This document shows, one piece after another, positions 15,316 to 62,430 of a stretch of 64,000 nucleotides of DNA. The stretch's first letter is position 1, and each line of letters starts with the position of its first letter. The position numbers and the translations under genes are program-made. The DNA comes from Alistipes sp. (GTDB taxonomy: Bacteria > Bacteroidota > Bacteroidia > Bacteroidales > Rikenellaceae). The notes under the pieces are model-generated. The model saw nothing but the letters and a program-made list of their open reading frames with translations. It was not told the DNA's origin and made no database searches. The DNA is taken from positions 15,442 through 79,441 of the forward strand of contig JAFLRR010000009.1 in the NCBI GenBank assembly GCA_022511345.1. Direction: 5' to 3'.

Positions 15316-15331
15316 CGCAAAACCCCTGCCA
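15316..15331 (-). promoter_or_regulatory. sigma54-type -24/-12 promoter upstream of clpB
   Basis: Minus strand reads TGGCAGG-GGTT-TTGCG, versus consensus TGGCACG-N4-TTGCW. Confidence 0.65.
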
Positions 15332-15533
15332 GGAGGCGGACCGTGACGGAGTGGCACCATTTGTCAGACGGCGAATGTCAAAGAGCGACAAAGAGTCCGC
15401 ACGGCGGCAGAGAGCCATGACAAAGAGTCGCATTTTCTGCCACATGACAAAAAAAGAGGCAGCGAAAAAAACGATATACGGATATTTTTCATATCTTTAC
15501 GTTGTTTTTTAATCGCGAAACGCTCAAAAACTT

Positions 15534-17018
15534 ATGAAGACTCTCGGAATTGACATGGGCTCGTCGTCGGTGAAGGTTTCGCTCATGGACGTCGAGACCG
15601 GACGATGCATAGCCTCGTCGACAAATCCTTCGGTGGAGATGCCAATAGACGCCCCGCAGAGCGGATGGGCCGAACAGGACCCCGAAATGTGGTGGAGGTA
15701 TATCTGCGACGGAATAAGGGCCGTGGGCGCAGAACACCCGCTCGCGGATGTGGCCGCCATAGGCATAACCTATCAGATGCACGGCCTGGTGGCAATAGAC
15801 AAAGCGGGAGAACCGCTCAGAAAAGCCATTATATGGTGCGACTCGCGCGCAGTAGCTACGGGTGCCGAGGCTTTGGAGGCGCTCGGGCCGCAGCGGTGCC
15901 TAAAGCACCTGCTAAACTCGCCGGGAAACTTCACCGCCTCGAAGGCCGCATGGGTCAGAAAGAACGAGCCGGAGATATTCGCGAAAATAGACAAGTTCAT
16001 GCTCCCGGGCGATTATGCCGCATACCGCCTCACGGGCGAGATTTCGACAACCGAAAGCGGATTGTCGGAGCAGATTCTATGGGACTTCGCCGAGAACCGC
16101 CGGGCTGATTTCGTGGCCGACTACTACGGCATACCGCACTCGATGATACCCCAGGCCGGAGTGTCGATAGGCATCCGGTCGCGAACGAACGCCGAGACCG
16201 AGAGGCTCTTCGGAATACCGGCAGGCACGCCCGTGTCATACCGCGCGGGTGACCAGCCGAACAACGCATTCTCGCTGAATGTGCTCGAGAAGGGAGAAAT
16301 AGCCGCCACGGGAGGAACGAGCGGTGTGGTGTACGGCGTATCGGACACGCCGAAGGCCGACCCGCAGTCGAGAGTCAACACATTCCTGCACGTGAACCAC
16401 TCGGCCGCAGCGCCGCGGTACGGAATACTGCTCTGCATAAACGGAACGGGCATAATGAACTCGTGGCTGCGCCGCAACATTGCCCGCTCAATGAGCTACG
16501 ACGAGATGAACCAGGCGGCTGCATCGGTGCCGGCAGGCTCCGACGGGCTGCTGTCGATACCATTCGGCAACGGCGCCGAACGGGTGCTCGGGAACCGTTA
16601 CACGGGAGCCTCGTTCTCGGGGATAGACCTCAACAGACACACCACAGCGCACATGATACGCTCGGTGCACGAGGGAATAGCGTACTCGTTCAGGTACGGA
16701 ATAGACATAATGCGGCAGACGGGACTGGTTCCGAACGTCATACGCGCAGGCAGGGCGAACCTGTTCCTGTCGCCGGTGTTCCGTGAGACGCTCGCAACCC
16801 TCACGGGCGCCGAAATCGAGCTCTTCAACACCGACGGCGCGCTCGGAGCGGCCCGCGGAGCGGCGCTCGGAGCAGGGCTATACTCCTCGCGCGAGCAGAC
16901 GTTCGCATCGCTCGAGAAGCTCGGCTCGGTGCGGCCGGTGCCCGAATGGAAAGAGGCGCTCGAGCAGGGTTATGCCGAATGGAAGGCCGAAGTGGAGAGT
17001 CGGCTGTCGAGGCATTGA
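15534..17018 (+). CDS. xylB: Xylulokinase (FGGY family)
   Basis: LGIDMGSSSVK, GITYQMHGLV, AIIWCDSR, GDQPNNA, GALGAARGA. Adjacent to xylA. Confidence 0.93.
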   Translation: MKTLGIDMGSSSVKVSLMDVETGRCIASSTNPSVEMPIDAPQSGWAEQDPEMWWRYICDGIRAVGAEHPLADVAAIGITYQMHGLVAIDKAGEPLRKAIIWCDSRAVATGAEALEALGPQRCLKHLLNSPGNFTASKAAWVRKNEPEIFAKIDKFMLPGDYAAYRLTGEISTTESGLSEQILWDFAENRRADFVADYYGIPHSMIPQAGVSIGIRSRTNAETERLFGIPAGTPVSYRAGDQPNNAFSLNVLEKGEIAATGGTSGVVYGVSDTPKADPQSRVNTFLHVNHSAAAPRYGILLCINGTGIMNSWLRRNIARSMSYDEMNQAAASVPAGSDGLLSIPFGNGAERVLGNRYTGASFSGIDLNRHTTAHMIRSVHEGIAYSFRYGIDIMRQTGLVPNVIRAGRANLFLSPVFRETLATLTGAEIELFNTDGALGAARGAALGAGLYSSREQTFASLEKLGSVRPVPEWKEALEQGYAEWKAEVESRLSRH

Positions 17019-17084
17019 AGCGTATGCTGGAGCAGATTTTAATTAACCGAAAACCGATAACAATCATCAAAAAAACTAAAAGCT

Positions 17085-18401
17085 ATGGCAACTAAAGAGT
17101 ATTTTCCCACAGTAGGAAAAATCCCCTTCGAGGGCAAGGATTCCAAGAATCCGATGGCCTTCCACTATTATGACCCCGAGCGCGTGGTGCGCGGCCGCAA
17201 AATGAAGGAGTGGTTCAAGTTCTCGATGGCTTGGTGGCACACCCTGTGCGCCGAGGGCGCCGACCAGTTCGGCGGCGGAACGAAGAAGTTCCCCTGGAAC
17301 CAGGAGGCATGCCCCGTGGAGCGCGCAAAGGACAAGATGGATGCAGGTTTCGAGTTCATGCAGAAGATGGGCATCGAATACTACTGCTTCCACGACGTGG
17401 ACCTGGTGGACGAGGCTGCTACGGCTGAGGAGTACGAGAAGAACCTCAAGGAGATTGTGGCATATGCAAAGCAGAAGCAGGCACAGACCGGAATAAAGCT
17501 GCTCTGGGGTACGGCAAACGTATTCTCGCACGCACGATACATGAACGGAGCCTCGACAAACCCCGACTTCGCAACAGCTGCGCGCGCAATGCTGCAAATC
17601 AAGAACGCCATAGACGCCACGATAGAGCTCGGAGGCGAGAACTATGTATTCTGGGGCGGCCGCGAGGGTTACATGTCGCTGCTGAACACCGACATGAAGC
17701 GCGAGAAGAGCCACATGGCCACCATGCTGCGCATGGCTCGCGACTATGCGCGTTCGAAGGGATTCAAGGGTAATTTCCTCATCGAGCCCAAGCCTATGGA
17801 GCCCATGAAGCACCAGTATGACGTGGATACCGAAACAGTAATAGGATTCCTGCGCGCAAACGGCCTGGACAAGGACTTCAAGGTAAACATCGAGGTAAAC
17901 CACGCAACCCTGGCAGGACACACTTTCGAGCACGAACTGCAGTGCGCAGTGGATGCCGGAATGCTCGGCTCTATAGACGCAAACCGAGGCGACTACCAGA
18001 ACGGCTGGGATACGGACCAGTTCCCCGTAGACCTCTACGAGATGGTGCAGGCCATGCTGGTAATACTCAAGGGAGGCGGCCTGCAGGGAGGCGGAACCAA
18101 CTTCGACGCAAAGACACGCCGAAACTCGACCGATCTGGAGGATATATTCATTGCCCACATCTCGGGTATGGATGTGATGGCCCGCGCGCTGCTCATAGCT
18201 GCCGACATACTCGACAACTCGCCATATGAGAAGATGCTCAAAGAGCGCTACGCTTCGTATGACTCGGGCGAGGGAAAGGATTTCGAGGAGGGCAAGCTCA
18301 CCCTCGAGCAGGCGGCAGAATACGCCCGCAAGAACGGCGAGCCCGCACAGCACAGCGGAAAGCAGGAGCTCTACGAGACCATTGTAAACATGTATATCTA
18401 A
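17085..18401 (+). CDS. xylA: Xylose isomerase (class II)
   Basis: [60 protein letters not shown]. Confidence 0.98.
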
Positions 18402-18474
18402 AAAAGATTCCGATGCCGGCGCCCGCTTTTGCGGGCGCCGGTGAAATCGGCCAATCCGAAACGCCAAACCTGAA

Positions 18475-19893
18475 ATGACAAACACAGTACAACAACAGGG
18501 AAGCCGAAGCTATCTCTTCTCGATAGTCCTCGTGGCTATCATCGGAGGTCTGCTCTTCGGTTATGACACGGCAGTGGTGTCGGGTGCCGAAAAGGCGCTC
18601 CAGACATTCTTCCGCGACGGACTCGGGGCTCTCTACACCCCCGGACTTCACGGCTTCACAGCCTCGAGCGCACTGATAGGATGCGTCATAGGAGGTGCAA
18701 TATCGGGATTCATGGCCTCGCGCCTGGGTCGCAAGCGCTCGCTGATAGCAGCCGCGCTGATGTTCTTCATATCGGCCGTGGGCTCGTGGTGCCCCGAAAG
18801 CGGAATACTGCCATACGGCGAGCCGTCGATGACGCTGCTGGCCGTATTCAACATATACCGCATACTGGGCGGCGTGGGCGTAGGTCTGGCATCGGCCGTA
18901 TGCCCGATGTACATAGCCGAAATATCGCCCGCAAGGATTCGAGGAACGCTCGTGTCGTGCAACCAGTTCGCCATAATATTCGGAATGCTGGTGGTATACT
19001 TCGTAAACTACATGATTCGCAACAACCTCGGCGAAACGGCCGAAGCGATACAGTCGGCAATGGTCAGCCTCGGCTGGCGCCGAATGTTCCTCAGCGAGGC
19101 ATTCCCCGCAGGAACGTTCTGTCTGCTGGTGATGCTCGTGCCCGAAACGCCGCGATATCTGGCACTGCGCGGAAACGAGTCGAAAGCTTTCTCAATTCTC
19201 GAAAAAATCAACGGCACGGCCGAGGCCAAGACAATACTCGGCGAAATAAAGGCCACCGTCAACGAGAAGCGCGAGAAGATTTTCACATACGGAGTGACGG
19301 TTATAGTAGTCGGAGTGCTGCTGTCGTTCTTCCAGCAGGCCGTGGGAATAAACGTGGTGCTCTACTATGCGCCGCGAATATTCGAAAACATGGGCGCCTC
19401 GGGAGATGCTTCGATGGTGCAGACCGTGGTGATGGGTATAGTGAACATAGTATTTACGGTGGTGGCAATATTCACCGTGGACAAGGTGGGACGCCGGCCG
19501 CTGCTCATAATCGGCTCGATAGGCATGACAATAGGCATGGCGGCGCTGGCCGTACTGTCGTTCACCGACTCGATAGGCGTGGCGGCGCTGGTGTTCATAA
19601 TAATATACACCGCATCGTTCATGATGTCGTGGGGTCCCATATGCTGGGTGCTCATAGCCGAAATATTCCCCAACACGATACGCTCGCAGGCCGTGGCCAT
19701 TGCCGTGGCGGCACAGTGGATATCGAACTTCCTGGTATCGTCGACATTCCCGTCGCTGAGCGAGTGGAGCGTGGGCGGAACATACTGCATATATGCGCTC
19801 ATGTCGCTGCTATCGGCACTCTTCGTATGGAGCCGCGTGCCCGAAACCAAGGGCAAGACTCTCGAGGAGATGTCGAAACTGTGGAAAAAATAG
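18475..19893 (+). CDS. xylE: D-xylose:proton symporter (sugar porter MFS)
   Basis: GGLLFGYDTAVVSG, PMYIAEISPARIRG, PETPRYL, QQAVGINVVLYY, SWGPICWVLIAEIFP, PETKGKTLEE. Confidence 0.93.
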   Translation: MTNTVQQQGSRSYLFSIVLVAIIGGLLFGYDTAVVSGAEKALQTFFRDGLGALYTPGLHGFTASSALIGCVIGGAISGFMASRLGRKRSLIAAALMFFISAVGSWCPESGILPYGEPSMTLLAVFNIYRILGGVGVGLASAVCPMYIAEISPARIRGTLVSCNQFAIIFGMLVVYFVNYMIRNNLGETAEAIQSAMVSLGWRRMFLSEAFPAGTFCLLVMLVPETPRYLALRGNESKAFSILEKINGTAEAKTILGEIKATVNEKREKIFTYGVTVIVVGVLLSFFQQAVGINVVLYYAPRIFENMGASGDASMVQTVVMGIVNIVFTVVAIFTVDKVGRRPLLIIGSIGMTIGMAALAVLSFTDSIGVAALVFIIIYTASFMMSWGPICWVLIAEIFPNTIRSQAVAIAVAAQWISNFLVSSTFPSLSEWSVGGTYCIYALMSLLSALFVWSRVPETKGKTLEEMSKLWKK

Positions 19894-19917
19894 ACTCCGC
19901 AGCCCAGAGCATTGCAA

Positions 19918-19948
19918 AACCGGGGCCGGCTGATTGCCGGCCCCGGTT
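19918..19948. terminator. Hairpin between convergent xylE and GH95
   Basis: AACCGGGGCCGGC-tgatt-GCCGGCCCCGGTT, a perfect 13-bp stem. Confidence 0.8.
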
Positions 19949-19953
19949 CGTTT

Positions 19954-22302
19954 CTATTCCATGCGGCGGCGCAGAAGCCGGCCCGCACGGCAGTCGAGCG
20001 TCAGCTCGCGGCCGTCGGCAAGACGAACCACGCAGCGGCAGTCGCGAGGCGAGAGGAGCGTGAACTCCACTACCCTGCCGTCGCGCCAGCGGCAGCCAAC
20101 CTCGACGCCTCCCTGAGCCACAAGGCCGCCGTATGCGCCGTCGGGCCATGCCGAAGGGAGCGCCGGGAGAAGCTCGATGGCTCCGTCATGGCTCTGAAGA
20201 AGCATCTCCATGATGCCGGACGAGCCGCCGAAGTTGCCGTCGATCTGGAAAGGCGGATGGGCGCAAAGCAGGTTGGGATAGGTGCCGCCGCGATGGCGCC
20301 CGTCGGGCATGATTGCAGGCTGAAGCAGGTTGCGCAGCAGACTGTAGGCGCGCTCGCCGTCGCCCGTGCGGGCGCGGAAGTTGACCTTCCAGGCGCGCGA
20401 CCAGCCCGTGCCCCCGTCGCCGCGGCGGTCGAGAGTCACGCGGCACGCCTCAATAAGTTCGGGGGTGCGGCTGCGGGTGATTTCGGTGCCGGGATGCAGG
20501 CCGAAAAGGTGGGATATGTGGCGGTGCTGGACTTCGGCCTCGCGGTAGTCCTCGAGCCACTCCATGAGGTAGCCACCCTGGCTGATGCGGTTGGGCGGCA
20601 GGCGCAGAGCCGCTGAACGAAGACGGCCAGCATAGTCTGAATCGCGGCCGAGGATGTCGGCGGCCGACGCCACGGCGCCGAACAGCTCGCGAACAATCTG
20701 GGAGTCCATGGTGGAGCCCATGCAGACGTAGGTCACGCGGCGGTCGCTCTGGTCGTAGAAGCCGTTCTCGGGCGACGAGGTGGGAGCCGTGACAAGCATG
20801 CCCGACGGCTCCTCGACAAGTATCGAGAGGAAGAAGTCGGCCGCACCGCGCAAAACGGGCCACACCGAGGCGAGCCACTGCTCGTCGAGGGTGTAGAGGT
20901 AGTGCTGCCACAGGTGAAGCGCAAGCCATGCGCCGCCGGTATTGGTAGCTCCCCACGAGGGGTCCTCGGAGGGTGCCGAGAAGTTCCAGGCATTGGCAAG
21001 CACGTGGGCGCACCAGCCGTCGGCACCGTAGAAGCTGCGGGCGGTGCGGGCACCCGACTCGGCAAGGCGGCGCGTGTACTCGAGAAGGGGTTCGTGAAGC
21101 TCGGAGAGATTGCCCTGCTCGGCAATCCAGTGGTTCATCTGGACATTTATATTAAGGTGGTAGTCGCCGCACCAGGGGGTTTTGACGGTATTGGCCCAGA
21201 TGCCCTGAAGGTTGGGAGGCAGCGAGCCGCGGCGGGCCGAGCTGATGAGCAGGTAGCGGCCGTACTGCATGTAGAGCGCAGCGAGCGAGGGGTCGGGCTC
21301 GCCGGAGGCGAAGCGCTCGAGGCGGTCGTCGGTCATCATGCCGCTCATGTCGGGACCCTCCAGCTCAAGCCATACGCGGCCGAACAGACGGCCGAAGGCC
21401 TCGCGGTGGGCACGGACATGTTCGTCGAGACGGCTGGCGCAGGCCGCCGCAAGGCATGAATCGACCCGAGAGCCGTAGTCGTCACGGCCGCCGTAGGAGG
21501 TGGCGGCAGCAAGGTAAACAATGGCCTGGTCGGCACCCGAAACGACAACGCGGCCGTCGCGGCTGCAGAGCGTGCCGCCGTCGCACAGGACTCGCGCACG
21601 GGCCATGTACTTCACTCCCCCGACGCCCGGCTGGCCGCTGTCAAGCTCGCCCGACATGGTGATTGCAGAGCCCTCGGCCGAAACAGAGGCGCGCTCAGGC
21701 CTGTCGAGGCCCACGGAGAAGTCGAGAGCGCCGCGCTCGGAGGAGCGGAGGCGAACGACGACCACATCGGAGGTCATGGAGACGAAATATTCGCGCGTGA
21801 ACTCCACGCCGCCCTTGCTGAAGCGCGTGTAGGCCTCGGCATTGCGCAGGTTAAGGCCTCGCTCGTAGCCGCTAAGCTCGCCCTCGGGCAGAGTGAAGCG
21901 CAAATCGAGGTTGCCGAGCAGCTGGTAGCTGCCGTAGGCCGCCGAGGCGGATCCTCCGCCCGCGCAGACGAAGCGCCGGGCGACCAAATCCTGAGCCTCG
22001 AGATTGCGGCCCTCGAGAAGCAGCCGCCGAATCTCGGGCAGCGAGGCCAGGGCGTCGGGGTTGGAGGTGTCGTACTCGGAGCCGCTCCACATGGACTCCT
22101 CGTTGAGCAGGATGCGTTCGTGGCCGATGCCTCCGTCGGGCATGGCGCCCAGACGTCCGTTGCCTAAAGGAAGGGTTAGCATCCAGATGTCGGCTGGTTC
22201 GTCGTAGCGCAGGACCAGGTCGTCGGGCCGCGCCGAAGCCTCGCCGCTGCAGCCGAACAGAAGCACCGACGAGAACAGAAGTATGAATGTTTTGGCGTGC
22301 AT
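19954..22302 (-). CDS. Glycoside hydrolase family 95 (alpha-L-fucosidase/galactosidase), predicted lipoprotein
   Basis: LPLGNGRLGAM, LLNEESMWSG, YGRYLLISS, NLQGIW, DYHLNINVQMNHW, HRHISHL, PPFQIDGNFG. Lipobox LFGC. Confidence 0.93.
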   Translation of the reverse strand: MHAKTFILLFSSVLLFGCSGEASARPDDLVLRYDEPADIWMLTLPLGNGRLGAMPDGGIGHERILLNEESMWSGSEYDTSNPDALASLPEIRRLLLEGRNLEAQDLVARRFVCAGGGSASAAYGSYQLLGNLDLRFTLPEGELSGYERGLNLRNAEAYTRFSKGGVEFTREYFVSMTSDVVVVRLRSSERGALDFSVGLDRPERASVSAEGSAITMSGELDSGQPGVGGVKYMARARVLCDGGTLCSRDGRVVVSGADQAIVYLAAATSYGGRDDYGSRVDSCLAAACASRLDEHVRAHREAFGRLFGRVWLELEGPDMSGMMTDDRLERFASGEPDPSLAALYMQYGRYLLISSARRGSLPPNLQGIWANTVKTPWCGDYHLNINVQMNHWIAEQGNLSELHEPLLEYTRRLAESGARTARSFYGADGWCAHVLANAWNFSAPSEDPSWGATNTGGAWLALHLWQHYLYTLDEQWLASVWPVLRGAADFFLSILVEEPSGMLVTAPTSSPENGFYDQSDRRVTYVCMGSTMDSQIVRELFGAVASAADILGRDSDYAGRLRSAALRLPPNRISQGGYLMEWLEDYREAEVQHRHISHLFGLHPGTEITRSRTPELIEACRVTLDRRGDGGTGWSRAWKVNFRARTGDGERAYSLLRNLLQPAIMPDGRHRGGTYPNLLCAHPPFQIDGNFGGSSGIMEMLLQSHDGAIELLPALPSAWPDGAYGGLVAQGGVEVGCRWRDGRVVEFTLLSPRDCRCVVRLADGRELTLDCRAGRLLRRRME

Positions 22303-22392
22303 AGTGCAAAGATAGGCAATTGCGGATAATTCGCCGCATAAGAGTTCGCGTTTTGATTAACTTTTCATATCTTTGCACCACGAGCAGATTTT

Positions 22393-42137: not shown

Positions 42138-42144
42138 GATGATG

Positions 42145-42215
42145 TTGAACTGCCCGGATTCGAACCGGGAACGACAGAACCAAAATCTGCTGTGTTACCG
42201 TTACACCACAGTTCA
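42145..42215 (-). tRNA. tRNA-Gln (anticodon TTG), CCA not encoded
   Basis: TGAACTG/CAGTTCA acceptor stem, anticodon arm GCAGA-TTTTGGT-TCTGT, T arm GGTTCGAATCC. -7 element at 42239-42246. Confidence 0.96.
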
Positions 42216-55215: not shown

Positions 55216-55317
55216 AATTCAAATATACGAATTTTCCCGCGACAATCAGCCTTGCGGCCCACGAAAAAAAAGCCGGCACGAGGCCGGCTCAACACAACAG
55301 ATATGCTCAGCGGAGGA

Positions 55318-55881
55318 TTACTCGCCCTCCTTTTCGTGCTGTTCGTGTATGCGGTGAAGCTCGCGGGCTGCCTGCCGGCTGCCGGCAACGGACTGCATGG
55401 CCAGGTAGTCGGCGCCGTAATCCTCGAGATTCTTCAGCTCGGTGCGGAAGGTGTCGAGGTGCTGCTCCTCCTCGGCTATCAGGTCCTGGAACATCTTGTG
55501 AGTCACGGCATCGCCGTACTCGGTGGCCAGCCGCGAGGCTTTGTTGTAGCTCTCGATGGTTGAAGCTTCGAGCTCGGCAGCCATACTCAGCATCTCGCGC
55601 GGGTCGGTGACGCGGCGCGTGCGGAACGAGGGGTTCATATCCACGTCGCCCTCGAGGTAGAGTATGCGGTCGGCAAGCTCCTCGATGTGGCGCATCTCGG
55701 CTATCGACGTCTCGCGCATGATGCGCGACAGATAGAGGTAGCGCGAGTCCTCGAAATGGGTGTGGAAGTACATATACTGCAGCGATGTGGCAATCTCCTT
55801 GCCTATGGCATCGTTGAGCAGCTCGACGCTGGCGGCATAGCGCGCGGCGGCCTTTTTCTCTTTGGTTTCGACTCTCTCCAT
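55318..55881 (-). CDS. bfr: Bacterioferritin
   Basis: Ferroxidase ligands (KEIATSLQY, AEMRH, AELE, EEEQH) and the heme-ligand Met in EMRH. ADRILYLEG. Confidence 0.88.
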   Translation of the reverse strand: MERVETKEKKAAARYAASVELLNDAIGKEIATSLQYMYFHTHFEDSRYLYLSRIMRETSIAEMRHIEELADRILYLEGDVDMNPSFRTRRVTDPREMLSMAAELEASTIESYNKASRLATEYGDAVTHKMFQDLIAEEEQHLDTFRTELKNLEDYGADYLAMQSVAGSRQAARELHRIHEQHEKEGE

Positions 55882-55913
55882 AGCAAAATGTTATTTTTTC
55901 GAGAGAGTGAGCC

Positions 55914-55929
55914 TGCAAATCGCGGGCCG
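55914..55929 (-). promoter_or_regulatory. sigma54-type -24/-12 promoter upstream of bfr
   Basis: Minus strand reads CGGCCCG-CGAT-TTGCA. Confidence 0.5.
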
Positions 55930-55991
55930 CTAATTAACCGATGACGGCGGCGGGCCCGCAAAAGGTCCGCCGCCGTCATTGATAGCCCCGT

Positions 55992-56153
55992 TCAGTCTAC
56001 GGGTTCGAAATCGCTCTTGTCGGCGCCGCACAGAGGACATGCCCAGTCGGCGGGGATATCCTCGAACGGAGTGCCCGGAGCTATGCCGCTCTCGGGGTCG
56101 CCCTCGGCAGGGTCGTAGACCCAGCCGCATGGAATGCAACGGTATTTTTTCAT
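55992..56153 (-). CDS. Rubredoxin (53 aa)
   Basis: [20 protein letters not shown]...[14 protein letters not shown]. Start at ATG 56153. Confidence 0.96.
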
Positions 56154-56199
56154 AGCAACAACTCTTTGTCGCCCTGCCCCGCTGCAATTAACATACCGT

Positions 56200-56931
56200 T
56201 CAGACGGCAAAACTTATGGCTGCCCGCAGACACTCCGCACCGTCGGCCGAGACGGCGAAGCGCCACTCGCCATCCTGCTCGGCACAGCCGAGCGTGAGCA
56301 TCTGTCCGTAGCGCGACTCGCGCAGGAAGTTGACGTCGAAACGCACGCCGCGGTCCGAAGCGACCAAATCGACGGGCAGCATGTCGAGCATCAGCTCGAT
56401 ATAGCGCATGGTGTTCATGTGTCGGTTGAAGTCGATGTCGCTGTAGGCCACACGGTGCTCGGATGTCAGAGCCGCATCGCCCAGCGGGCCGATTTTGCGC
56501 GGGCGCTCCGCCGGGGGCGGCGCATCGACAATCCACTGTGCGTGCATGCCGGCCGTGGAGGTCATGTCGACAGCCGTGCGGGTGGTCAAATCGAGCATGC
56601 ACCACTGCGACACGGCGCGGCCGAAGATGCGGCCGTCGCTGCCGGTGAGGGTGAAGTTGCGTGTCGACATGAGGCGGTTGTAGTCGCTTATCCACGTGGC
56701 GATGACGTAGCTGCCGTACTGCTCGGGGCGGCTGTCGAACTCCATGGCGAAGCGCGACAGCACCCACGAGAGGTTGCTGCGGCCCAGAACATCGACGCCA
56801 AAGCCCTTGGTCTGCGCGTCGGTGCCCGCAATGTTGAGTATGCTGCCGCCCAGCGAGGCGAGGGTTGCGCGGAGCGTGAAGTCGACATCCTGCGGTTCGA
56901 CGCGAATGTCGTAGAGTGTCTTGTCGGCCAT
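56200..56931 (-). CDS. Acyl-ACP thioesterase
   Basis: [38 protein letters not shown]. Start at ATG 56931. Confidence 0.88.
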
Positions 56932-57109
56932 AGGCTTCAAAAAAATAGATATGCGGATACAAAAATAATCATTTTCAGGACAAATCGAAATCCCGGCCGA
57001 TGCGTGGCAGCACATCGGGGAAAGATCGAATAATATCGTTTTTCGATAAAAAATATTTGTTTTTCGGAAATTTGTTTTTATATTTGCAGACAGCAAACAC
57101 AACATCATC

Positions 57110-57826
57110 ATGGATAAAAAAGACAAGCAATCGCTCAACCGCAGACTTCTGCTGATATATGTCTGCTACTTCGTGGTCATAGGATTGGGGTTCTTTCTCA
57201 GCTACATGCCCGTATTCTCGCGCGGATTCGCCGCAGGGATGGACGCCGCCCAGCAGGAGATAGAGTCGTCGAGCCATGGAATCGAAAAGCGATGGTATCT
57301 CTTCTCGGTACACCCCTCTCTATTCTCGGAACACAGCATCGCCATAGACTCGCGCTACGAGAACATCGGAATAGAGCTCAGCGGATACGACGCATTGGCA
57401 GCGGTGACCGTCAGCAGCACCGACCCGGACAACGACCCGGCATTCGCAATGGTCTCGCGCAACTACACCAAGACCATGTTCATCTCGATGGGCATATCGC
57501 TCTCGTGGCTGGCGATTCTCATACTCATAGGAGTCATTATCAACTCGCTGCGGCGCAGCATACGCGACCAGCGCCCGCTGCCCGACAGCAATATACTTTA
57601 CATGCGAATCATCGGAATACTGATAATAGCCAGCGAGCTGCTCAAGGCCTTAGCCTACCACATAGGCCAGCAGACCGTGCAGCAGATAGCAGACCGGACG
57701 ATGTCGTTCATCAACTCCTATCCCATCGAATACGGAAACATAGTGCTGGGTCTGCTGGTGCTCTTCTCGGCCGAGGTATTCGCCATAGGCGTGCGGCTCG
57801 GCGAGGAGCAGAGACTAACGATTTAG
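57110..57826 (+). CDS. DUF2975 family membrane protein
   Basis: TM segments and C-terminal LFSAEVFAIGVRLGEEQRLTI. Typical pairing with a downstream HTH gene. Confidence 0.85.
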   Translation: MDKKDKQSLNRRLLLIYVCYFVVIGLGFFLSYMPVFSRGFAAGMDAAQQEIESSSHGIEKRWYLFSVHPSLFSEHSIAIDSRYENIGIELSGYDALAAVTVSSTDPDNDPAFAMVSRNYTKTMFISMGISLSWLAILILIGVIINSLRRSIRDQRPLPDSNILYMRIIGILIIASELLKALAYHIGQQTVQQIADRTMSFINSYPIEYGNIVLGLLVLFSAEVFAIGVRLGEEQRLTI

Positions 57827-57922
57827 AACACGCCGCCGGCAAGCCCGAGGCGGACCGAAGGCTTGAAAACAGCGGTTGAAAAACGCCAAGATTATGAAAC
57901 ACTATATGATACATATACCCGA

Positions 57923-57931
57923 GGGGGGGGG
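57923..57931 (+). repeat. G9 homopolymer 6 nt upstream of the HTH start codon
   Basis: CCCGA-GGGGGGGGG-TAAGCG-ATG. Confidence 0.9.
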
Positions 57932-57937
57932 TAAGCG

Positions 57938-58165
57938 ATGCCTATAATAATAAACATAGACGTAATGATGGCCAAGCGCAAAATGTCGCTCGGCGAACTG
58001 TCGGAGCGTGTAGACATAACCCCTGCGAACATGTCGATTCTCAAGAACGGCAAGGCCAAGGCCATACGTTTTTCGACACTGGAGGCCGTATGCCGCGTGC
58101 TCGACTGCCAACCCGGCGACATAATAGAGTACCGCCCCGACGGCGAAGATAAGTCAAATCAATAA
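57938..58165 (+). CDS. Cro/C1-type (YozG-like) HTH transcriptional regulator
   Basis: MPIIINIDVMMAKRKMSLGELSERVDITPANMSILKNGKAKAIRFSTLEAVC...CQPGDI. Confidence 0.93.
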   Translation: MPIIINIDVMMAKRKMSLGELSERVDITPANMSILKNGKAKAIRFSTLEAVCRVLDCQPGDIIEYRPDGEDKSNQ

Positions 58166-58201
58166 AAATCAATAAAAACCAATAACAAACAATTTCGTAT
58201 T

Positions 58202-61021
58202 ATGAAGCGATTTCTGATTTCGGCGGCAGCGTTGCTGACAGCAGCAACCTCCGTCCTGGCGCAGAATGCACCGATTCCCCTCGACCCTGCCGTCCGTTAC
58301 GGCAAGCTGGAGAACGGCATGACGTACTACGTGCGCCACAACGAGAAGCCCAAGGGACAGGCCGATTTCTACATCCTGCACAACGTGGGCGCCATTCAGG
58401 AGAATGACGACCAGCAGGGTCTGGCCCACTTCCTGGAGCACATGGCATTCAACGGAACCAAAAACCTGCCCGACAAGATGCTCATCGAGTATCTGGAGAA
58501 AGTGGGTGTGAAGTTCGGCGCGAACCTCAACGCCGGCACCTCGTGGGACTACACGCTCTACAACATGAGCGACGTGCCCACCACTCGCGAAGGCATAATC
58601 GATTCGGCGCTGCTGATTCTGCACGACTGGTCGTCGTTCATAACCCTCGCACCCGAGGAGATAGACAAGGAGCGCGGCGTAATCATGGAGGAGCTGCGCA
58701 CGCGCGACGGCGCGCAGTGGCGCTCGACAATCCAGATGCTCAAGGCTATAGGCAAAGGCACCAAGTATGCCGAGCGTAACCTGATAGGCTACCTCGACGG
58801 TCTGAAGTCGTTCGGTCACGACCAGCTGGAGGCTTTCTACCACACGTGGTACCGCCCGGACTACCAGGCCGTTATCGTCGTGGGTGACGTGGATGCCGAC
58901 GCCGTTGTAGGCAAAATCAAGACGCTCATGGCCGATGTGCCGGCTCCGGCGGCAGACGCCCCGCAGAAGGAGGTGATAGTAGCGCCCGTCAACGAAGAGC
59001 CCATAGTCTCGATATTCACCGACCCCGAGATGATCCGTTCGTCGGCCTCGCTCTACATCAAGCACCAGGCGATGCCCAACGAACTGAAGGGCACCATGGC
59101 CGGATATTCGGTCAACGTACTGACCAACTACATCGGCATGATGGCCAACTCGCGCCTGCGCGACATAGCCCAGAAGCCCGACGCGCCCTTCCTGGCAGCA
59201 TCGCTGCGCTACGGCAGCATGGGCATCTGCCCCACTGCCGACATGCTGACGCTCGGAGTTGTTACCGAGGACGGCAAGCTCATCGAAGGTTTCGAGGCCG
59301 CTTATGCCGAGCTTGAGAAGATTCGCCGCTACGGATTCACCGACAGCGAGTTCGAGCGCGCGCGCAACGAGATGATGCGCTATGCCGAGCAGGAGTATGC
59401 AAACCGCAACGACCGCAAAAACGAGTCCTACGTACACGACTACGTGTCGCACTACCAGTCGAACGACCCGACACCCGACGCCGAGACCATGTGGAAGATA
59501 GACAGCATGCTTATCAGCTCGATACCCGTCGAGGCAGTCAACAACATAGCCTCGCAGCTGGTAACGCCCGAAAACCGCGTGGTAATAGTCAACGCCCCCG
59601 AGAAGGAGGGTCTGGTAAATCCCACTGCCGAGCAGCTTACAGCCGTGCTGGCCAAGGTCGATGCCGCTGAGCTCGCAGCTCACCAGGACAACGCCGTAAA
59701 CGAGCCTCTGATTGCCGACGAGAGCCTGCTGAAGGGTTCGCCCGTGGTGAGCGAGAGCAGCAACGAGGCATACGGCACTACGGAGTGGACGCTCAAGAAC
59801 GGAATCCGCATAATCGTCAAGCCCACAAAGTTCAAGGCCGACGAGGTGCTCTTCCAGGCCGAGTCGTTCGGCGGAACGTCGGTGCTCGACAATGTCGACT
59901 ACTACACCGGAAAATACATCTCGTTGTTCGAGTCGACCGGCGGCGTGTCGAAATTCTCGGCTGCCGACCTTCGCAAGATGCTCTCGGGCAAAAATGCCAA
60001 CGTGATGGTCAACGCCGACGATTACAGCAGCTACATGTCGGGCTCCTGCTCGCCCAAGGATATCGAAACCATGCTTCAGCTGGCATATCTGCGCTTCACC
60101 GAACCCCGCTTCACCGAGGACGACTTCGCAACCGCCATGAAGAGCATGCGTTCGCAGACCGCCAACCTGCGCGCAAACCCCATGTACATCCTGCAGGACC
60201 AGTTCTACAAGACACTCTACAACGACAACTTCCGTCAGCAGGTGCTGAGCGACGATGTGCTCAACATGATAGACTTCACGCGTCTGGGCGCCGTTCATGC
60301 ACAGCTCTTCCCCAGCGCCAACAGCTTCCTGTTCACCTTCGTGGGCAATGTCGACACCGAGACGCTCAAGCCTCTGGTCGAGAAATACCTCGGTTCGCTG
60401 CCCACAAGCAAGGATTACCTCAACTTCGCCGATGACGGCGTACACAAGGTAAGCGGCATTGTCGTAAACGACTTCAAGACCCCGATGCAGCAGCCCAAGG
60501 TGAGCGTGCTCTATGCGTTCAACGGCCCGGCTGACTACACCATCGAGAACCGTCTGGCCATGACGTTCCTCTCGCAGGCACTCTCCTCGCGCTATTTAGA
60601 GTCCATCCGCGAGGAGAAGGGCGGCACCTACGGCGTACATGTCAACGGAGGCATCTCGCCGCTGCTCGACCGCCGCTACGACATGATAATACAGTTCGAC
60701 ACCAACGAGCAGATGGCTGACGAGCTGTGCGAGATAATCATGGAGGAGTTCGAGAAGATTGCCGCCGAGGGTCCCCGCGACGACGACTTCAACAAGACGC
60801 GCGAATACCTGCTCAAGGAGTGGGACAACTCGCTCGAGGAGAACCGCCGCTGGGTAAGCCGCATCGGCGAGTACAACTTCTACGGTCTGGACTACATAGC
60901 CGACTACCCTGCCGAGCTGAAGGCCATGAACAAGGAGAAGGTAGGCAAGCTGGCCCGCACGATTCTCGACAACAAGAACATGGTCAAGATAATCATGCGC
61001 CCCGAGGCTGCCGCCGAGTAG
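58202..61021 (+). CDS. M16 family zinc peptidase (PqqL-like), secreted
   Basis: Signal peptide, GKLENGMTYYVRHN, GLAHFLEHMAFNGT (HxxEH), EEIDKERGVIMEE, SIREEKGGTYGV. Confidence 0.94.
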   Translation: MKRFLISAAALLTAATSVLAQNAPIPLDPAVRYGKLENGMTYYVRHNEKPKGQADFYILHNVGAIQENDDQQGLAHFLEHMAFNGTKNLPDKMLIEYLEKVGVKFGANLNAGTSWDYTLYNMSDVPTTREGIIDSALLILHDWSSFITLAPEEIDKERGVIMEELRTRDGAQWRSTIQMLKAIGKGTKYAERNLIGYLDGLKSFGHDQLEAFYHTWYRPDYQAVIVVGDVDADAVVGKIKTLMADVPAPAADAPQKEVIVAPVNEEPIVSIFTDPEMIRSSASLYIKHQAMPNELKGTMAGYSVNVLTNYIGMMANSRLRDIAQKPDAPFLAASLRYGSMGICPTADMLTLGVVTEDGKLIEGFEAAYAELEKIRRYGFTDSEFERARNEMMRYAEQEYANRNDRKNESYVHDYVSHYQSNDPTPDAETMWKIDSMLISSIPVEAVNNIASQLVTPENRVVIVNAPEKEGLVNPTAEQLTAVLAKVDAAELAAHQDNAVNEPLIADESLLKGSPVVSESSNEAYGTTEWTLKNGIRIIVKPTKFKADEVLFQAESFGGTSVLDNVDYYTGKYISLFESTGGVSKFSAADLRKMLSGKNANVMVNADDYSSYMSGSCSPKDIETMLQLAYLRFTEPRFTEDDFATAMKSMRSQTANLRANPMYILQDQFYKTLYNDNFRQQVLSDDVLNMIDFTRLGAVHAQLFPSANSFLFTFVGNVDTETLKPLVEKYLGSLPTSKDYLNFADDGVHKVSGIVVNDFKTPMQQPKVSVLYAFNGPADYTIENRLAMTFLSQALSSRYLESIREEKGGTYGVHVNGGISPLLDRRYDMIIQFDTNEQMADELCEIIMEEFEKIAAEGPRDDDFNKTREYLLKEWDNSLEENRRWVSRIGEYNFYGLDYIADYPAELKAMNKEKVGKLARTILDNKNMVKIIMRPEAAAE

Positions 61022-61045
61022 CGCACGGCCATAAAGCAAAACAAG

Positions 61046-61080
61046 GAGCGGACCTCTCGTCGAGGTCCGCTCTTTCGTTT
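61046..61080. terminator. Bidirectional terminator
   Basis: GAGCGGACCTC-tcgtc-GAGGTCCGCTC with A-rich and T-rich flanks. Confidence 0.85.
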
Positions 61081-61089
61081 GCGGCAAGA

Positions 61090-61242
61090 CTATCGCTTGT
61101 CGGTCTTTCTGGTGTACTGGTTAATCCCGGTGGGATTGTTGCCGTGCGACTTGGTCTGCGACGAGGTCGAGGCTGTGGTTTTGGATGCGGACTTGCTCTG
61201 CGAAGTGCGGCCGCATGTCGAATTCTTGGTAGACTCTTTCAT
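61090..61242 (-). CDS. 50-aa hydrophilic Ser/Thr/Lys-rich small protein (absent from the ORF track)
   Basis: MKESTKNSTCGRTSQSKSASKTTASTSSQTKSHGNNPTGINQYTRKTDKR. A-rich leader, lies between Mn-catalase and a terminator. Confidence 0.7.
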   Translation of the reverse strand: MKESTKNSTCGRTSQSKSASKTTASTSSQTKSHGNNPTGINQYTRKTDKR

Positions 61243-61302
61243 GATTCAACCGATTTTTTTGTTTAACATTATTTACAGCGCCGGACATGCCGGCCGGTGT
61301 TG

Positions 61303-62289
61303 TCAGTGCTGTTCGACGGGCTGGCGCTTAGTGCGGCCCGGCTGGCGCTCGTAGTCGCACCACTCCTGCGCGCCCTCGCCTGTAACGGCGCGACGAATCT
61401 CGCCGCTGCGCTCACGCGCAAGTTTGCGGTCGGCGGTGCGCACCGAGGCCAGCGTGCGGTCGGAGCCGGTGACCTTCAGTTCGGTCAGGCCGTCGGTGGC
61501 GAGCACTTGCTCGCGCGGGTTGTCGACATACTGCCACTGCTCGTGCAGCTGCGTGCTCTCGCCCTTGCACCAGGGTGCCGAAGTAGTATCCGCAGAGCCC
61601 TCGCAGCCCGCCGAATGGTTGGAGTAGAGATTGCTGTAACGGGGGTCGGACTGAAGCACTCCCGGCGGGAAATTGGGTCGGATGGTACAGAGCGCCGCCT
61701 CGAACTGCTGGTAGTGCGCCACCTCGCGGGTCATCAGATAGTTGAGCGTATCGAGGACCCACTTGTCGTCGGTAAACTGCATGAGATATTCGTAGACTAT
61801 CTTCGCGCGCGACTCCGAAGCCAGATTCGAGCGCAGGTCGACAGTCAGATCGCCGTTGGCATTGATGTAGGTCGCCTGCCACGGTGCGCCGGCGCTGTTC
61901 ACCAGCATGGGACCGCCGGCCGAGATGGTGCCGAACTGCGGGTTGACGCAGAATGCCGAGTGGATGAAGTCGTCCTTGCAGAACTTCTCGCCGAAGACGT
62001 CGTTGGTCTCGACGGCATCCTTCATGTTGCCGTTCACGCCGGCCAGAAGCATCTGAATAGTTGCGCCGACAATCTCGAGGTGGCCGAGCTCCTCGGCAGC
62101 TATATCCATGAGCATGTCGTATTTGTCCGGATAGGGATTGTGGCAGGCGAAGGCCTGTACGAAATACTGCATCGAGGCCGACAGCTCGCCGTTGCCGCCG
62201 CCGAACTGCTCGAGCATAAGAGAGGCGAAACGCGCGTCGGGTCGCGATACGCGGGCCTTGAAATGGAGCTCTTTGGAGTGGTAAAACAT
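61303..62289 (-). CDS. Manganese catalase family protein
   Basis: MFYHSKEL, LEQFGGGNGELSASMQY, DIAAEELGHLE, DLRSNLASESRA, LMTREVAHYQQF. Start at ATG 62289. Confidence 0.93.
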   Translation of the reverse strand: MFYHSKELHFKARVSRPDARFASLMLEQFGGGNGELSASMQYFVQAFACHNPYPDKYDMLMDIAAEELGHLEIVGATIQMLLAGVNGNMKDAVETNDVFGEKFCKDDFIHSAFCVNPQFGTISAGGPMLVNSAGAPWQATYINANGDLTVDLRSNLASESRAKIVYEYLMQFTDDKWVLDTLNYLMTREVAHYQQFEAALCTIRPNFPPGVLQSDPRYSNLYSNHSAGCEGSADTTSAPWCKGESTQLHEQWQYVDNPREQVLATDGLTELKVTGSDRTLASVRTADRKLARERSGEIRRAVTGEGAQEWCDYERQPGRTKRQPVEQH

Positions 62290-62414
62290 GGTCGTTACTC
62301 TTTTTGTTAAACATCCCGCTGCAAGTCCCAGGCACGCAGCAGCCGGCAGAGGCCGCATAGCAGTGCCTGTGGAGCGTCAGAAAGCTCCCGAAAGACCGCA
62401 GCATGACGCATTCG

Positions 62415-62430
62415 AGCAAAAGGCTTGCCA
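62415..62430 (-). promoter_or_regulatory. sigma54-type -24/-12 promoter upstream of Mn-catalase
   Basis: Minus strand reads TGGCAAG-CCTT-TTGCT, one mismatch to TGGCACG-N4-TTGCW. Confidence 0.7.

What the first reader, a model, noticed from the sequence alone, without database searches (positions are those of the whole stretch)
15316..62430. Putative sigma54 stress regulon: clpB, bacterioferritin and Mn-catalase share -24/-12 promoters
Seen: three unlinked stress genes each have a GG-N10-GC element at a plausible distance and orientation. clpB has TGGCAGG-GGTT-TTGCG (15316-15331), bfr has CGGCCCG-CGAT-TTGCA (55914-55929) and Mn-catalase has TGGCAAG-CCTT-TTGCT (62415-62430). I found no TAnnTTTG housekeeping element upstream of any of the three, whereas many other transcription units here have one. 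Established: the RpoN consensus is TGGCACG-N4-TTGCW and needs an enhancer-binding activator. Inference: heat, iron and peroxide defence are wired to sigma54 in this lineage instead of sigma32/HrcA/OxyR/Fur-type control. I cannot say whether this has been described.
Basis: partly seen in the sequence, partly recalled or inferred. Interest (0 to 1): 0.7.

Follow-up and report, generated by a model that had tools for sequence, protein, structure and literature searches.

The report
Sigma-54 promoters on Alistipes stress genes
In this gut Alistipes genome the chaperone gene clpB, a manganese catalase gene and probably a bacterioferritin gene sit behind conserved sigma-54 type promoters; this extends a heat-shock wiring already published for the phylum to two oxidative and iron defence genes.

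Summary
The three motifs are on the minus strand at the stated coordinates. No TAnnTTTG box lies upstream of any of them. The window is from an Alistipes species (Rikenellaceae, Bacteroidales).

A weight matrix built only from clpB orthologues ranks the Mn-catalase site (24.5 bits) and the clpB site (21.0 bits) as the top two hits in 128 kb. About 0.025 hits of at least 20 bits are expected by chance. The bfr site scores 4.7 bits, which is chance level on its own.

All three elements are conserved at the same position in orthologous upstream regions whose flanks have diverged. In related species, metatranscriptome contigs for clpB and Mn-catalase begin 26-38 nt downstream of the -12 GC.

Only clpB carries an upstream enhancer-like palindrome, TGACA-N3-TGTCA. 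So the genes share a sigma factor, not one activator regulon.

Sigma-54 control of clpB and other chaperone genes in Bacteroidota is already published, from a Flavobacterium TSS map (2021) and in silico surveys. I found no report of Mn-catalase or bacterioferritin as sigma-54 targets. The claim of control "instead of OxyR/Fur" is untested.

Verdict: real, conserved, mostly known in kind, with new members.

The parts
12650..15247 (-). clpB (865 aa ClpB disaggregase)
   Evidence: Pfam Clp_N, AAA, AAA_lid_9, AAA_2, ClpB_D2-small. 62-86% identical orthologues in Alistipes and other Bacteroidales.
15316..15331 (-). clpB -24/-12 promoter TGGCAGGGGTTTTGCG (GG 15330-15329, GC 15318-15317; predicted TSS about 15306-15304)
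   Evidence: 21.0 bits with an orthologue-derived matrix, second best of 128 kb. Conserved in 61 of 67 orthologous loci. In orthologue L004, RNA contigs start 26-38 nt after the GC.
15387..15397 (-). Candidate enhancer (UAS) copy 1, GACTCTTTGTC
   Evidence: Matches GACA-N3-TGTC with one mismatch. This motif is 34-fold enriched upstream of clpB promoters across Bacteroidales.
15419..15429 (-). Candidate enhancer (UAS) copy 2, GACTCTTTGTC, 32 nt from copy 1
   Evidence: Spacings of 31-33 and 42 nt recur in orthologues.
55318..55881 (-). Bacterioferritin-family gene (187 aa)
   Evidence: Pfam Ferritin and Rubrerythrin. Best PDB sequence matches are bacterioferritins, E about 6e-17. Homologues are named bacterioferritin [Alistipes sp.].
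55914..55929 (-). bfr -24/-12-like element CGGCCCGCGATTTGCA (degenerate -24 half)
   Evidence: 4.7 bits, chance level alone. It is positionally orthologous to [TC]GG-N9-TTTGC in all 10 loci. That includes the invariant TGGAACGGGTTTTGC, 13-19 bits, in six loci.
55941..55979 (-). Hairpin downstream of the rubredoxin gene (likely terminator), separating it from the bfr promoter
   Evidence: Predicted -32.7 kcal/mol; sequence.
55992..56153 (-). Rubredoxin gene (53 aa) directly upstream of bfr
   Evidence: Translation [15 protein letters not shown]...[15 protein letters not shown]. The orthologous 53-aa gene hits PF00301.
61303..62289 (-). Manganese catalase gene (328 aa from ATG 62289)
   Evidence: Pfam Mn_catalase, E 8e-65, starting at residue 24 of the longer ORF. 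PDB matches to Anabaena Alr3090 and Lactobacillus pseudocatalase.
62290..62404 (-). Predicted long 5' leader of the Mn-catalase mRNA (about 115 nt)
   Evidence: Distance from the predicted TSS to the ATG. Single-sequence folds are more stable than shuffles in most lineages, z -2 to -3.2. The consensus fold is inconclusive. In orthologue L141 the equivalent leader is transcribed.
62415..62430 (-). Mn-catalase -24/-12 promoter TGGCAAGCCTTTTGCT (predicted TSS about 62404)
   Evidence: 24.5 bits, the best hit in the window with a matrix built from clpB sites only. It is the only conserved island in aligned upstream regions and is present in further lineages. RNA contigs in L141 start 26-27 nt after the GC.
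62542..62575 (-). Hairpin after the upstream NqrF-like gene, bounding the Mn-catalase intergenic region
   Evidence: Sequence. The upstream gene has Fer2, FAD_binding_6 and NAD_binding_1 domains.
909..923 (-). Possible fourth -24/-12-like element, CGGCACGGATTTTGT, about 220 nt upstream of an ECF-type sigma factor gene (106..690)
   Evidence: 14.0 bits, third best hit but at chance level alone. Conserved in 3 of 4 orthologous loci. Gene identity from Pfam Sigma70_r2, r4 and ECF.

Best explanation
The clpB and Mn-catalase elements are promoters read by RNA polymerase carrying sigma-54 (RpoN). The bfr element probably is too.

How it would work:
- The holoenzyme binds the GG (-24) and GC (-12) boxes as a closed complex.
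- It fires only when an AAA+ enhancer-binding activator hydrolyses ATP.
- These genes therefore stay off until a stress-sensing activator switches them on.

clpB belongs to the proteostasis (heat-shock) sigma-54 regulon already described in Bacteroidota. Its activator most likely binds the TGACA-N3-TGTCA palindromes. In this window there are two copies, 32 nt apart, about 55-100 nt upstream of the -24 box.

Mn-catalase and bfr lack those palindromes. They are most likely switched on by a different activator, possibly one without a DNA-binding domain, that responds to oxygen, peroxide or iron.

Shown here: motif presence, statistics, conservation, enhancer enrichment, and RNA 5' boundaries in relatives.

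Inferred: sigma-54 dependence, activator identity, and the inducing signals.
For: Motif statistics:
- The two strong sites are the top two matrix hits in 128 kb. About 0.025 hits of at least 20 bits are expected.

Conservation:
- clpB: 61 of 67 loci from Alistipes to Muribaculaceae, Prevotellaceae and Saprospiraceae carry the element.
- Mn-catalase: the element is the only conserved block in otherwise diverged upstream regions. It recurs in further clades, including 25-bit sites in L128 and L140-153 and a low-GC Bacteroidetes contig, L155.
- bfr: [TC]GG-N9-TTTGC lies 27-33 nt from the ATG in 10 of 10 loci.

sigmaA box:
- No TAnnTTTG is present at any of the three sites.

RNA:
- In mouse-gut metatranscriptomes, clpB contigs of orthologue L004 start at 2984, 2993 and 2996. 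The GC is at 2957-2958, and there is no cover over 2736-2983.
- In chicken-gut metatranscriptomes, Mn-catalase contigs of L141 start at 1029 and 1030. The GC is at 1002-1003, the ATG is at 1202, and no RNA lies over 528-1028. A DNA-like run covers the whole stretch.

Enhancer:
- GACA-N3-TGTC with at most one mismatch occurs 82 times against 2.4 expected upstream of clpB promoters.
- TGACA is 10-fold enriched there.

Literature:
- The F. psychrophilum TSS map assigns clpB, groESL, dnaK, grpE-dnaJ, htpG and lon to a -24/-12 motif (PMC9723704).
- Chaperone COGs and COG0542 are enriched for predicted sigma-54 promoters in Bacteroidia (PMC12316311).
- A supplementary table of that paper lists a sigma-54 protein, Alfi_2344, for Alistipes finegoldii.
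- RpoN is present in 24 of 26 Bacteroidetes species surveyed (PMC3372290).
Against: - No rpoN or activator gene lies in the window or in any fetched flank. Their presence in this genome rests on genus-level literature.
- No RNA data exist for this organism.
- The RNA evidence from relatives comes from assembled contigs, not 5'-end reads. It cannot separate a start 11-13 nt after the GC from one a few bases away. One run (X7) and one low-depth contig (X23) cross the promoter regions.
- The bfr site in the window is at chance level by score.
- In six bfr orthologues the element is the 5' arm of a strong hairpin followed by a T run. That could be a terminator and not a promoter.
- Many Alistipes place Mn-catalase behind other small genes, with no such motif within 1.5 kb.
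Confidence: 0.75

Rival explanations
1. The bfr element is not a promoter. It would be the upstream arm of an intrinsic terminator for the preceding gene. In that case bfr is transcribed by read-through or from a promoter not recognised here, and its likeness to -24/-12 is a coincidence.
For: - In L164-166 and L170-172, GGTTTTGC pairs with GCAAAACC and a T run follows. Predicted stability is -16 to -28 kcal/mol.
- The other clade shows the matching pair GATTTGC / GCAAATC, which is one compensatory change.
- The window site scores only 4.7 bits.
Against: - The 15-nt TGGAACGGGTTTTGC is invariant across six species whose loops differ. That is unusual for a purely structural terminator.
- The GG of the -24 box lies outside the core stem and is kept in all 10 loci, including those without the hairpin (the window, and weakly L161-163).
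- Only about 20 nt separate the hairpin from the ATG, so a bfr promoter would have to overlap it anyway.
- A start inside the loop would escape termination, so both functions can coexist.
Confidence: 0.3
2. The motifs are read by another sigma factor, not sigma-54. Candidates are an ECF-type sigma, or sigmaA using the TTTG of the -12 box as a weak -7 box with TGGCA as a regulator site.
For: - The -12 half contains TTTG, the most conserved part of the Bacteroidetes -7 box.
- The RNA contig boundaries cannot tell the two start positions apart.
- B. thetaiotaomicron has an unassigned second promoter motif (PM2) linked to oxidative stress genes (PMC7366714).
Against: - The TA of TAnnTTTG is absent and not conserved, whereas TGGCA at exact spacing is.
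- In F. psychrophilum a TSS-anchored analysis separates this motif class from the sigmaA variants and assigns clpB to it.
- PM2 is centred at -10 and -30 and is common at internal and antisense starts. That does not fit a -24/-12 element.
Confidence: 0.08
3. All three genes form a single regulon under one stress-sensing activator.
For: The three genes share the same promoter class and all have a defence function. The third-best matrix hit precedes an ECF sigma factor gene, which hints at a wider stress network.
Against: - The palindrome so strongly enriched upstream of clpB is absent from all Mn-catalase and bfr upstream regions examined. There are 0-1 weak matches there, against a mean of 2.4 TGACA/TGTCA pentamers per clpB region.
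- F. psychrophilum sigma-54 promoters fall into separate co-expression clusters, with three activators in the genome.
Confidence: 0.12
4. The matches are chance occurrences with no function.
For: - GG-N10-GC alone is at the chance level.
- The bfr site (4.7 bits) and the ECF sigma site (14.0 bits) are within chance expectation by score.
Against: - About 0.025 hits of at least 20 bits are expected and 2 are observed. Both are intergenic and correctly oriented.
- The elements are conserved in position across tens of species.
Confidence: 0.03

Closest known systems
Sigma-54 (SM4 motif) promoters of Flavobacterium psychrophilum, from a genome-wide TSS map (Guerin et al. 2021, PMC9723704)
   Same: Same phylum and the same -24/-12 motif class. 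clpB is a listed member, with groESL, dnaK, grpE-dnaJ, htpG, lon and skp. Activation by a few enhancer-binding proteins was proposed there too.
   Different: A different class (Flavobacteriia against Bacteroidia). No catalase or ferritin gene appears in the paper's main text, and only a selection of SM4 promoters is tabulated. No enhancer sequence is described in the passages I read. Here there is no TSS map for the organism itself.
   Same: Chaperone COGs, HtpG and COG0542 (ClpA/ClpB) are enriched for predicted sigma-54 promoters in Bacteroidia and Flavobacteriia. Alistipes finegoldii is among the genomes with one sigma-54.
   Different: The work is purely in silico at COG level. The terms catalase and ferritin, and COG3546 and COG2193, do not occur in the text or in the held supplements.
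PexR / sigma-54 peroxide response of Myxococcus xanthus (PMC12754779)
   Same: Sigma-54 promoters drive peroxide defence genes (ahpC, katB), with a dedicated enhancer-binding protein as the H2O2 sensor. This is the nearest precedent for a sigma-54-driven catalase.
   Different: A different phylum and a haem catalase, not a Mn-catalase. pexR sits next to its targets, whereas no activator gene lies near the Alistipes genes. The reported PexR homologues are in Acidobacteriota, Nitrospirota, Planctomycetota and Pseudomonadota, not Bacteroidota.
RprY binding to the clpB, groES, dnaK and ahpC promoter regions in Porphyromonas gingivalis (PMC3646045)
   Same: A Bacteroidales response regulator binds the upstream regions of the same chaperone genes. 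No CIRCE element is found there.
   Different: RprY was proposed to act as a repressor. No binding motif is given in the paper. Whether it recognises TGACA-N3-TGTCA is unknown. From memory it is not a sigma-54 activator.
Classical heat-shock control (sigma-32 in Proteobacteria; HrcA/CIRCE in Firmicutes and others)
   Same: The same target genes and the same logic of keeping chaperones off until stress.
   Different: A different sigma family and mechanism: ATP-dependent activation of a closed complex, as opposed to sigma competition or repressor release.

Membership tests
Sigma-54 (RpoN) dependent -24/-12 promoter | GG and GC dinucleotides exactly 10 nt apart within a TGGCAC-N5-TTGCW-like context | tested here: met
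   clpB is TGGCAGG-GGTT-TTGCG and Mn-catalase is TGGCAAG-CCTT-TTGCT. Both are exact for TGGCA-N6-TTGC, at 21.0 and 24.5 bits. bfr is CGGCCCG-CGAT-TTGCA. It keeps GG and TTGCA only (4.7 bits), so for bfr this feature is only partly met.
Sigma-54 (RpoN) dependent -24/-12 promoter | The element is conserved at the same position in orthologous upstream regions while the flanks diverge | tested here: met
   clpB in 61 of 67 loci. Mn-catalase as the only conserved island, plus further clades. bfr in 10 of 10 loci at 27-33 nt from the ATG.
Sigma-54 (RpoN) dependent -24/-12 promoter | An rpoN gene in the same genome | not testable with these tools
At genus level, A. finegoldii has Alfi_2344, and all 27 Bacteroidia genomes in the table appear to have sigma-54 (PMC12316311 supplement).
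Sigma-54 (RpoN) dependent -24/-12 promoter | An enhancer-binding AAA+ activator, usually with upstream binding sites | tested here: inconclusive
   The clpB upstream regions carry strongly enriched TGACA-N3-TGTCA palindromes: 82 against 2.4 expected, with two copies in the window. None lie upstream of Mn-catalase or bfr. No activator gene was identified.
Sigma-54 (RpoN) dependent -24/-12 promoter | Transcription start about 11-13 nt downstream of the GC | tested here: inconclusive
   No RNA runs exist for this organism. In orthologues, RNA contigs start 26-38 nt (clpB, L004) and 26-27 nt (Mn-catalase, L141) after the GC, with no RNA upstream. This is compatible with the feature, but assembled contigs lose the extreme 5' end. 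bfr could not be tested.
Bacteroidetes sigmaA housekeeping promoter | A TAnnTTTG box about 7 nt upstream of the start | tested here: not met
   No exact match within 200 nt upstream of clpB, bfr or Mn-catalase. It is present upstream of 10 of 27 other intergenic regions.
Bacteroidota sigma-54 proteostasis (heat-shock) regulon | The gene is an orthologue of a member with a TSS-supported -24/-12 promoter (clpB, groESL, dnaK, grpE, htpG, lon) | tested here: met
   The window gene is a full-length ClpB, and clpB is listed under motif SM4 in F. psychrophilum. Mn-catalase and bfr do not appear in that paper's main text.
Bacteroidota sigma-54 proteostasis (heat-shock) regulon | Induction by heat or protein-folding stress, dependent on rpoN | not testable with these tools
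   This needs expression data from a cultured Alistipes.
Single activator regulon containing clpB, bfr and Mn-catalase | A shared upstream activator-binding motif | tested here: not met
   GACA-N3-TGTC and the TGACA/TGTCA pentamers are abundant upstream of clpB promoters. They are absent or at background upstream of Mn-catalase (6 lineages) and bfr (7 loci).
PexR-type sigma-54 peroxide regulon | A GAF-AAA+ activator gene adjacent to the peroxide defence genes | tested here: not met
   No GAFTGA-type motif is encoded in the 64-kb window, or within 1.5 kb of 80 Mn-catalase loci, or within 1-2 kb of the bfr loci.
Intrinsic terminator (rival for the bfr element) | A G+C-containing hairpin followed by a T run downstream of a gene | tested here: inconclusive
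   Met in six bfr orthologues, at -16 to -28 kcal/mol with a T run. Not met in the window. There the element does not pair (-7 kcal/mol, unrelated pairing), and a separate hairpin follows the rubredoxin gene.

The most novel reading that the evidence does not exclude
In Alistipes (Rikenellaceae), oxidative and iron defence genes (Mn-catalase, bacterioferritin) would be switched on through sigma-54 by an unidentified oxygen-, peroxide- or iron-sensing activator. That activator would be distinct from the heat-shock activator that binds TGACA-N3-TGTCA. This would be a Bacteroidales counterpart of the myxobacterial PexR system. It would give an obligate gut anaerobe an OxyR/PerR-independent route to peroxide defence.
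Probability: 0.35. Interest if true: 0.55.

Novelty: new member of a known kind. Interest (0 to 1): 0.35.

Why it matters
Alistipes is a common gut genus with almost no experimental genetics. Its tolerance of oxygen and of inflammation-derived oxidants bears on how it persists in the host.

This work gives three things that can be tested directly:
- Sigma-54 promoters on clpB and Mn-catalase, and probably on bfr.
- A sharply defined enhancer palindrome upstream of clpB that is conserved across Bacteroidales.
- A set of about seven candidate activators per genome, on my reading of a published table.

If the Mn-catalase and bfr promoters are sigma-54 dependent, the sigma-54 stress network of Bacteroidota reaches beyond protein quality control into oxidative and iron stress. 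The general principle, sigma-54-driven chaperone genes in this phylum, is already published, so the gain is incremental.

Tried and rejected
- Bare GG-N10-GC as evidence: rejected, 916 matches against 894 expected.
- rpoN or activator genes in the window and in all fetched flanks: none found by signature search.
- RNA runs for the window organism: none. Only three DNA runs hold part of it. The chicken-gut RNA runs do not contain this species.
- Replication attempts on L018 and L126: uninformative or empty. A second study on L141 had too little depth at the 5' end.
- Rfam scan of the window: only one tRNA, and no known RNA family in the leaders.
- Consensus structure of the Mn-catalase leader: the alignment was too poor and the result inconclusive.
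- Equating these motifs with the B. thetaiotaomicron PM2 motif: rejected as unsupported.
- DPS-like identity for the ferritin gene: rejected. The best solved relatives are bacterioferritins, and a DPS-like chain ranks far lower.
- Sabree et al. 2009, the source cited for sigma-54-dependent grpE and groES in B. thetaiotaomicron: not held and could not be read.
- Searching the 2025 sigma-54 survey and its supplements for catalase or ferritin COGs: nothing found.

Full report
**1. What the window is**

ClpB from the window is 72-86% identical to proteins from many Alistipes genomes and 62-65% identical to proteins from other Bacteroidales. G+C content is about 58%. The window therefore comes from an Alistipes species (Rikenellaceae). 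No representative genome was closer than 86% at ClpB.

All three genes of the finding lie on the minus strand.
- clpB: 12650..15247.
- A bacterioferritin-family gene: 55318..55881.
- A manganese catalase gene.

Identities rest on Pfam and on solved relatives. The catalase ORF opens at 62358. The Mn_catalase domain and the conserved N-terminus MFYHSKEL begin at the in-frame ATG at 62289, which I take as the start.

**2. The observation**

As a criterion, GG-N10-GC is worthless. It gives 916 matches against 894 expected.

The stricter TGGCA-N6-TTGC occurs three times against 0.72 expected. Two of the three are the clpB and Mn-catalase sites. The third lies antisense inside the ferritin gene.

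I built a weight matrix from 61 sites upstream of clpB orthologues, leaving the window out, and scanned both strands.

| Site | Score (bits) | Rank or expectation |
|---|---|---|
| Mn-catalase | 24.5 | best hit |
| clpB | 21.0 | second-best hit |
| 909-923 (ECF sigma gene upstream) | 14.0 | third-best hit |
| bfr | 4.7 | about 38 such sites expected per window |

In 200 random sequences with the same dinucleotide make-up, hits of at least 20 bits occur 0.025 times per window and hits of at least 14 bits occur 0.78 times. Two sites are therefore far beyond chance on sequence alone. The bfr site is not.

An exact TAnnTTTG lies in the right orientation upstream of 10 of 27 other intergenic regions, and of none of these three.

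**3. Conservation**

*clpB.* Of 67 orthologous loci with an intact gene start, 61 carry TGGCA-N6-T[TG]G[CTA], usually 45-90 nt before the ATG. They span Alistipes, Tidjanibacter, Muribaculaceae, Prevotellaceae, Dysgonomonadaceae and a Saprospiraceae genome.

*Mn-catalase.* In an alignment of diverged upstream regions, the only conserved block is TTTGGCA[AG]NNNTTTTGC[AC].
- A further abundant clade has a 25-bit site about 200 nt before the ATG.
- A low-GC Bacteroidetes contig has a 17-bit site.
- In many other Alistipes the catalase follows small membrane and disordered "stress" protein genes. No such motif lies within 1.5 kb there. The arrangement is lineage-specific.

*bfr.* All ten loci examined have [TC]GG-N9-TTTGC ending 27-33 nt before the ATG.
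- Six share an invariant TGGAACGGGTTTTGC that scores 13-19 bits.
- Four, including the window, have [TC]GG..[CT]GCGATTTGC.

The window copy is thus a degenerate but positionally orthologous version of a good site.

**4. A complication at bfr**

In the six loci where bfr directly follows an acyl-ACP thioesterase gene, the -12 half (GGTTTTGC) pairs with GCAAAACC about 10 nt downstream. A T run follows, and predicted stability is -16 to -28 kcal/mol.

The other clade shows the matching pair GATTTGC / GCAAATC.

This looks like the terminator of the upstream gene overlapping the promoter. A start inside the loop would yield a transcript lacking the first arm, so it would not terminate.

In the window a rubredoxin gene with its own strong hairpin (-32.7 kcal/mol) sits between the two genes, and the overlapping hairpin is gone.

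I cannot exclude that the conserved element is only a terminator. Against that:
- The 15-nt element is invariant while the loops vary.
- The -24 GG is kept in loci without the hairpin.
- There is no room for another promoter.

**5. RNA evidence from relatives**

No RNA run holds the window's organism. Two orthologous loci could be checked against assembled metatranscriptome contigs.

*clpB, locus L004 (a mouse-gut isolate).* The motif is at 2944-2958 and the ATG at 3001.
- Contigs from three runs start at 2984, 2993 and 2996.
- There is no cover over 2736-2983.
- A fourth run has a contig through the intergenic region.

*Mn-catalase, locus L141.* The motif is at 989-1003 and the ATG at 1202.
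- The two best-covered chicken-gut runs start at 1029 and 1030, at depths 19 and 63.
- Nothing lies over 528-1028.
- A low-depth contig in another run crosses the site.
- A DNA-like run covers everything evenly.

In both cases the transcript begins within about 30 nt downstream of the -12 GC and excludes the motif. For the catalase, a leader of about 170 nt is transcribed.

Assembled contigs lose the extreme 5' end. This is therefore compatible with a start 11-13 nt after the GC but does not prove it.

**6. The enhancer**

Upstream of the clpB promoters the pentamer TGACA/TGTCA is 10-fold enriched. GACA-N3-TGTC with at most one mismatch occurs 82 times in 61 regions against 2.4 expected.
- The consensus is TGACA-www-TGTCA.
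- Copies cluster about 25 nt and about 80 nt upstream of the -24 box.
- Spacings of 31-33 and 42 nt recur.
- The window has two copies, GACTCTTTGTC at 15387-15397 and at 15419-15429, plus further half-sites.

None of the Mn-catalase or bfr upstream regions carries this motif. The three genes therefore do not share an activator site. A published survey notes that many Bacteroidetes sigma-54 activators lack a DNA-binding domain (PMC3372290). That would fit promoters without an enhancer.

**7. What is already known**

- A TSS map of Flavobacterium psychrophilum found a -24/-12 motif upstream of groESL, lon, dnaK, grpE-dnaJ, htpG, skp and clpB. It validated the motif class by mutagenesis at another operon (PMC9723704).
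- A 2025 survey predicts enrichment of sigma-54 promoters at chaperone COGs, HtpG, COG0542, Lon and COG1066 in Bacteroidia and Flavobacteriia. It cites earlier work for grpE and groES in B. thetaiotaomicron (PMC12316311).
- The supplements of that survey list one sigma-54 protein for Alistipes finegoldii. On my reading, they also list seven activators for that species.
- RprY of P. gingivalis binds the clpB, groES and dnaK upstream regions (PMC3646045).
- Sigma-54 control of peroxide defence is known in Myxococcus through PexR (PMC12754779).

I found no report of a Mn-catalase or a bacterioferritin gene behind a sigma-54 promoter in Bacteroidota.

**8. Verdict**

The core interpretation, sigma-54 promoters, is well supported for clpB and Mn-catalase and probable for bfr.

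The "single regulon" reading is not supported. The "instead of OxyR/Fur" reading is untested.

The heat-shock part is published. The catalase and ferritin members and the clpB enhancer palindrome are modest additions.

I rate the finding as a new member of a known kind, with interest 0.35.

Noticed in passing
window 106-1100 (-): An ECF-type sigma factor gene (106..690) is 78-86% identical across Alistipes. Three conserved blocks lie upstream of it. The first is a -24/-12-like CGGCA[CT]GGATTTTG (909-923), present in 3 of 4 orthologous loci. The second is a sigmaA-like TTTGG...TA[CT]CTTGC block. The third is a block AAAACGGATTGCCTATCGAAAAATT just before the start codon. This may be a sigma-54 to ECF sigma cascade.
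   Followed up: partly
window 15340-15460 (-) and L001-L079 upstream of clpB: A TGACA-N3-TGTCA palindrome array lies upstream of the clpB sigma-54 promoters and is conserved across Bacteroidales. The binding protein is unknown.
   Followed up: yes
L046-L048, L051, L053, L058: In several Alistipes MAGs the clpB homologue is about 716-719 aa and lacks the N-terminal domain. A strong -24/-12 site lies directly upstream of this shorter gene in most of them (22-23 bits; 15 bits in L051). From memory this resembles the internally initiated short ClpB form of E. coli, but here it is the whole gene.
   Followed up: no
L164-L166, L170-L172 upstream of bfr: The -12 half of the bfr promoter is also the 5' arm of a terminator-like hairpin for the upstream thioesterase gene. 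One compensatory change separates the two clades (GTTTTGC/GCAAAAC against GATTTGC/GCAAATC). This looks like an overlapping terminator and promoter.
   Followed up: partly
window 62290-62404 (-) and orthologues: The Mn-catalase mRNA has a long leader (about 100-190 nt). A short block GTC[CT]TTTCGG is conserved in most lineages. Single-sequence folds are stable (z -2 to -3.2), but no consensus structure could be established.
   Followed up: partly
L126 2616-2640 and L132 1104-1126: Directly downstream of Mn-catalase in two loci lies a 72-aa Ser/Asn/Gly-rich protein gene. A -24/-12-like site of its own (15.7 bits) sits about 120 nt upstream of it. In other Alistipes, similar disordered proteins and a small membrane protein precede the catalase in one cluster.
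   Followed up: no
window 62594-63859 (-): The gene upstream of Mn-catalase has an N-terminal membrane helix plus 2Fe-2S, FAD and NAD domains. This looks like NqrF of the sodium-pumping NADH:quinone reductase. From memory, the nqr promoter is a reported RprY target in P. gingivalis.
   Followed up: no
window 55788-55802 (+): The third exact TGGCA-N6-TTGC match lies antisense inside the bacterioferritin gene. It scores 7.8 bits and is most likely chance.
   Followed up: no
L068 (-) about 490: In a Muribaculaceae locus, a 16-bit -24/-12-like site lies 183 nt upstream of what looks like the primary sigma factor gene (MRQLKITKSITNRES...).
   Followed up: no
window 42144-42215 (-): A single tRNA-Gln(TTG) gene is the only Rfam or ARAGORN hit in the window.
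   Followed up: no
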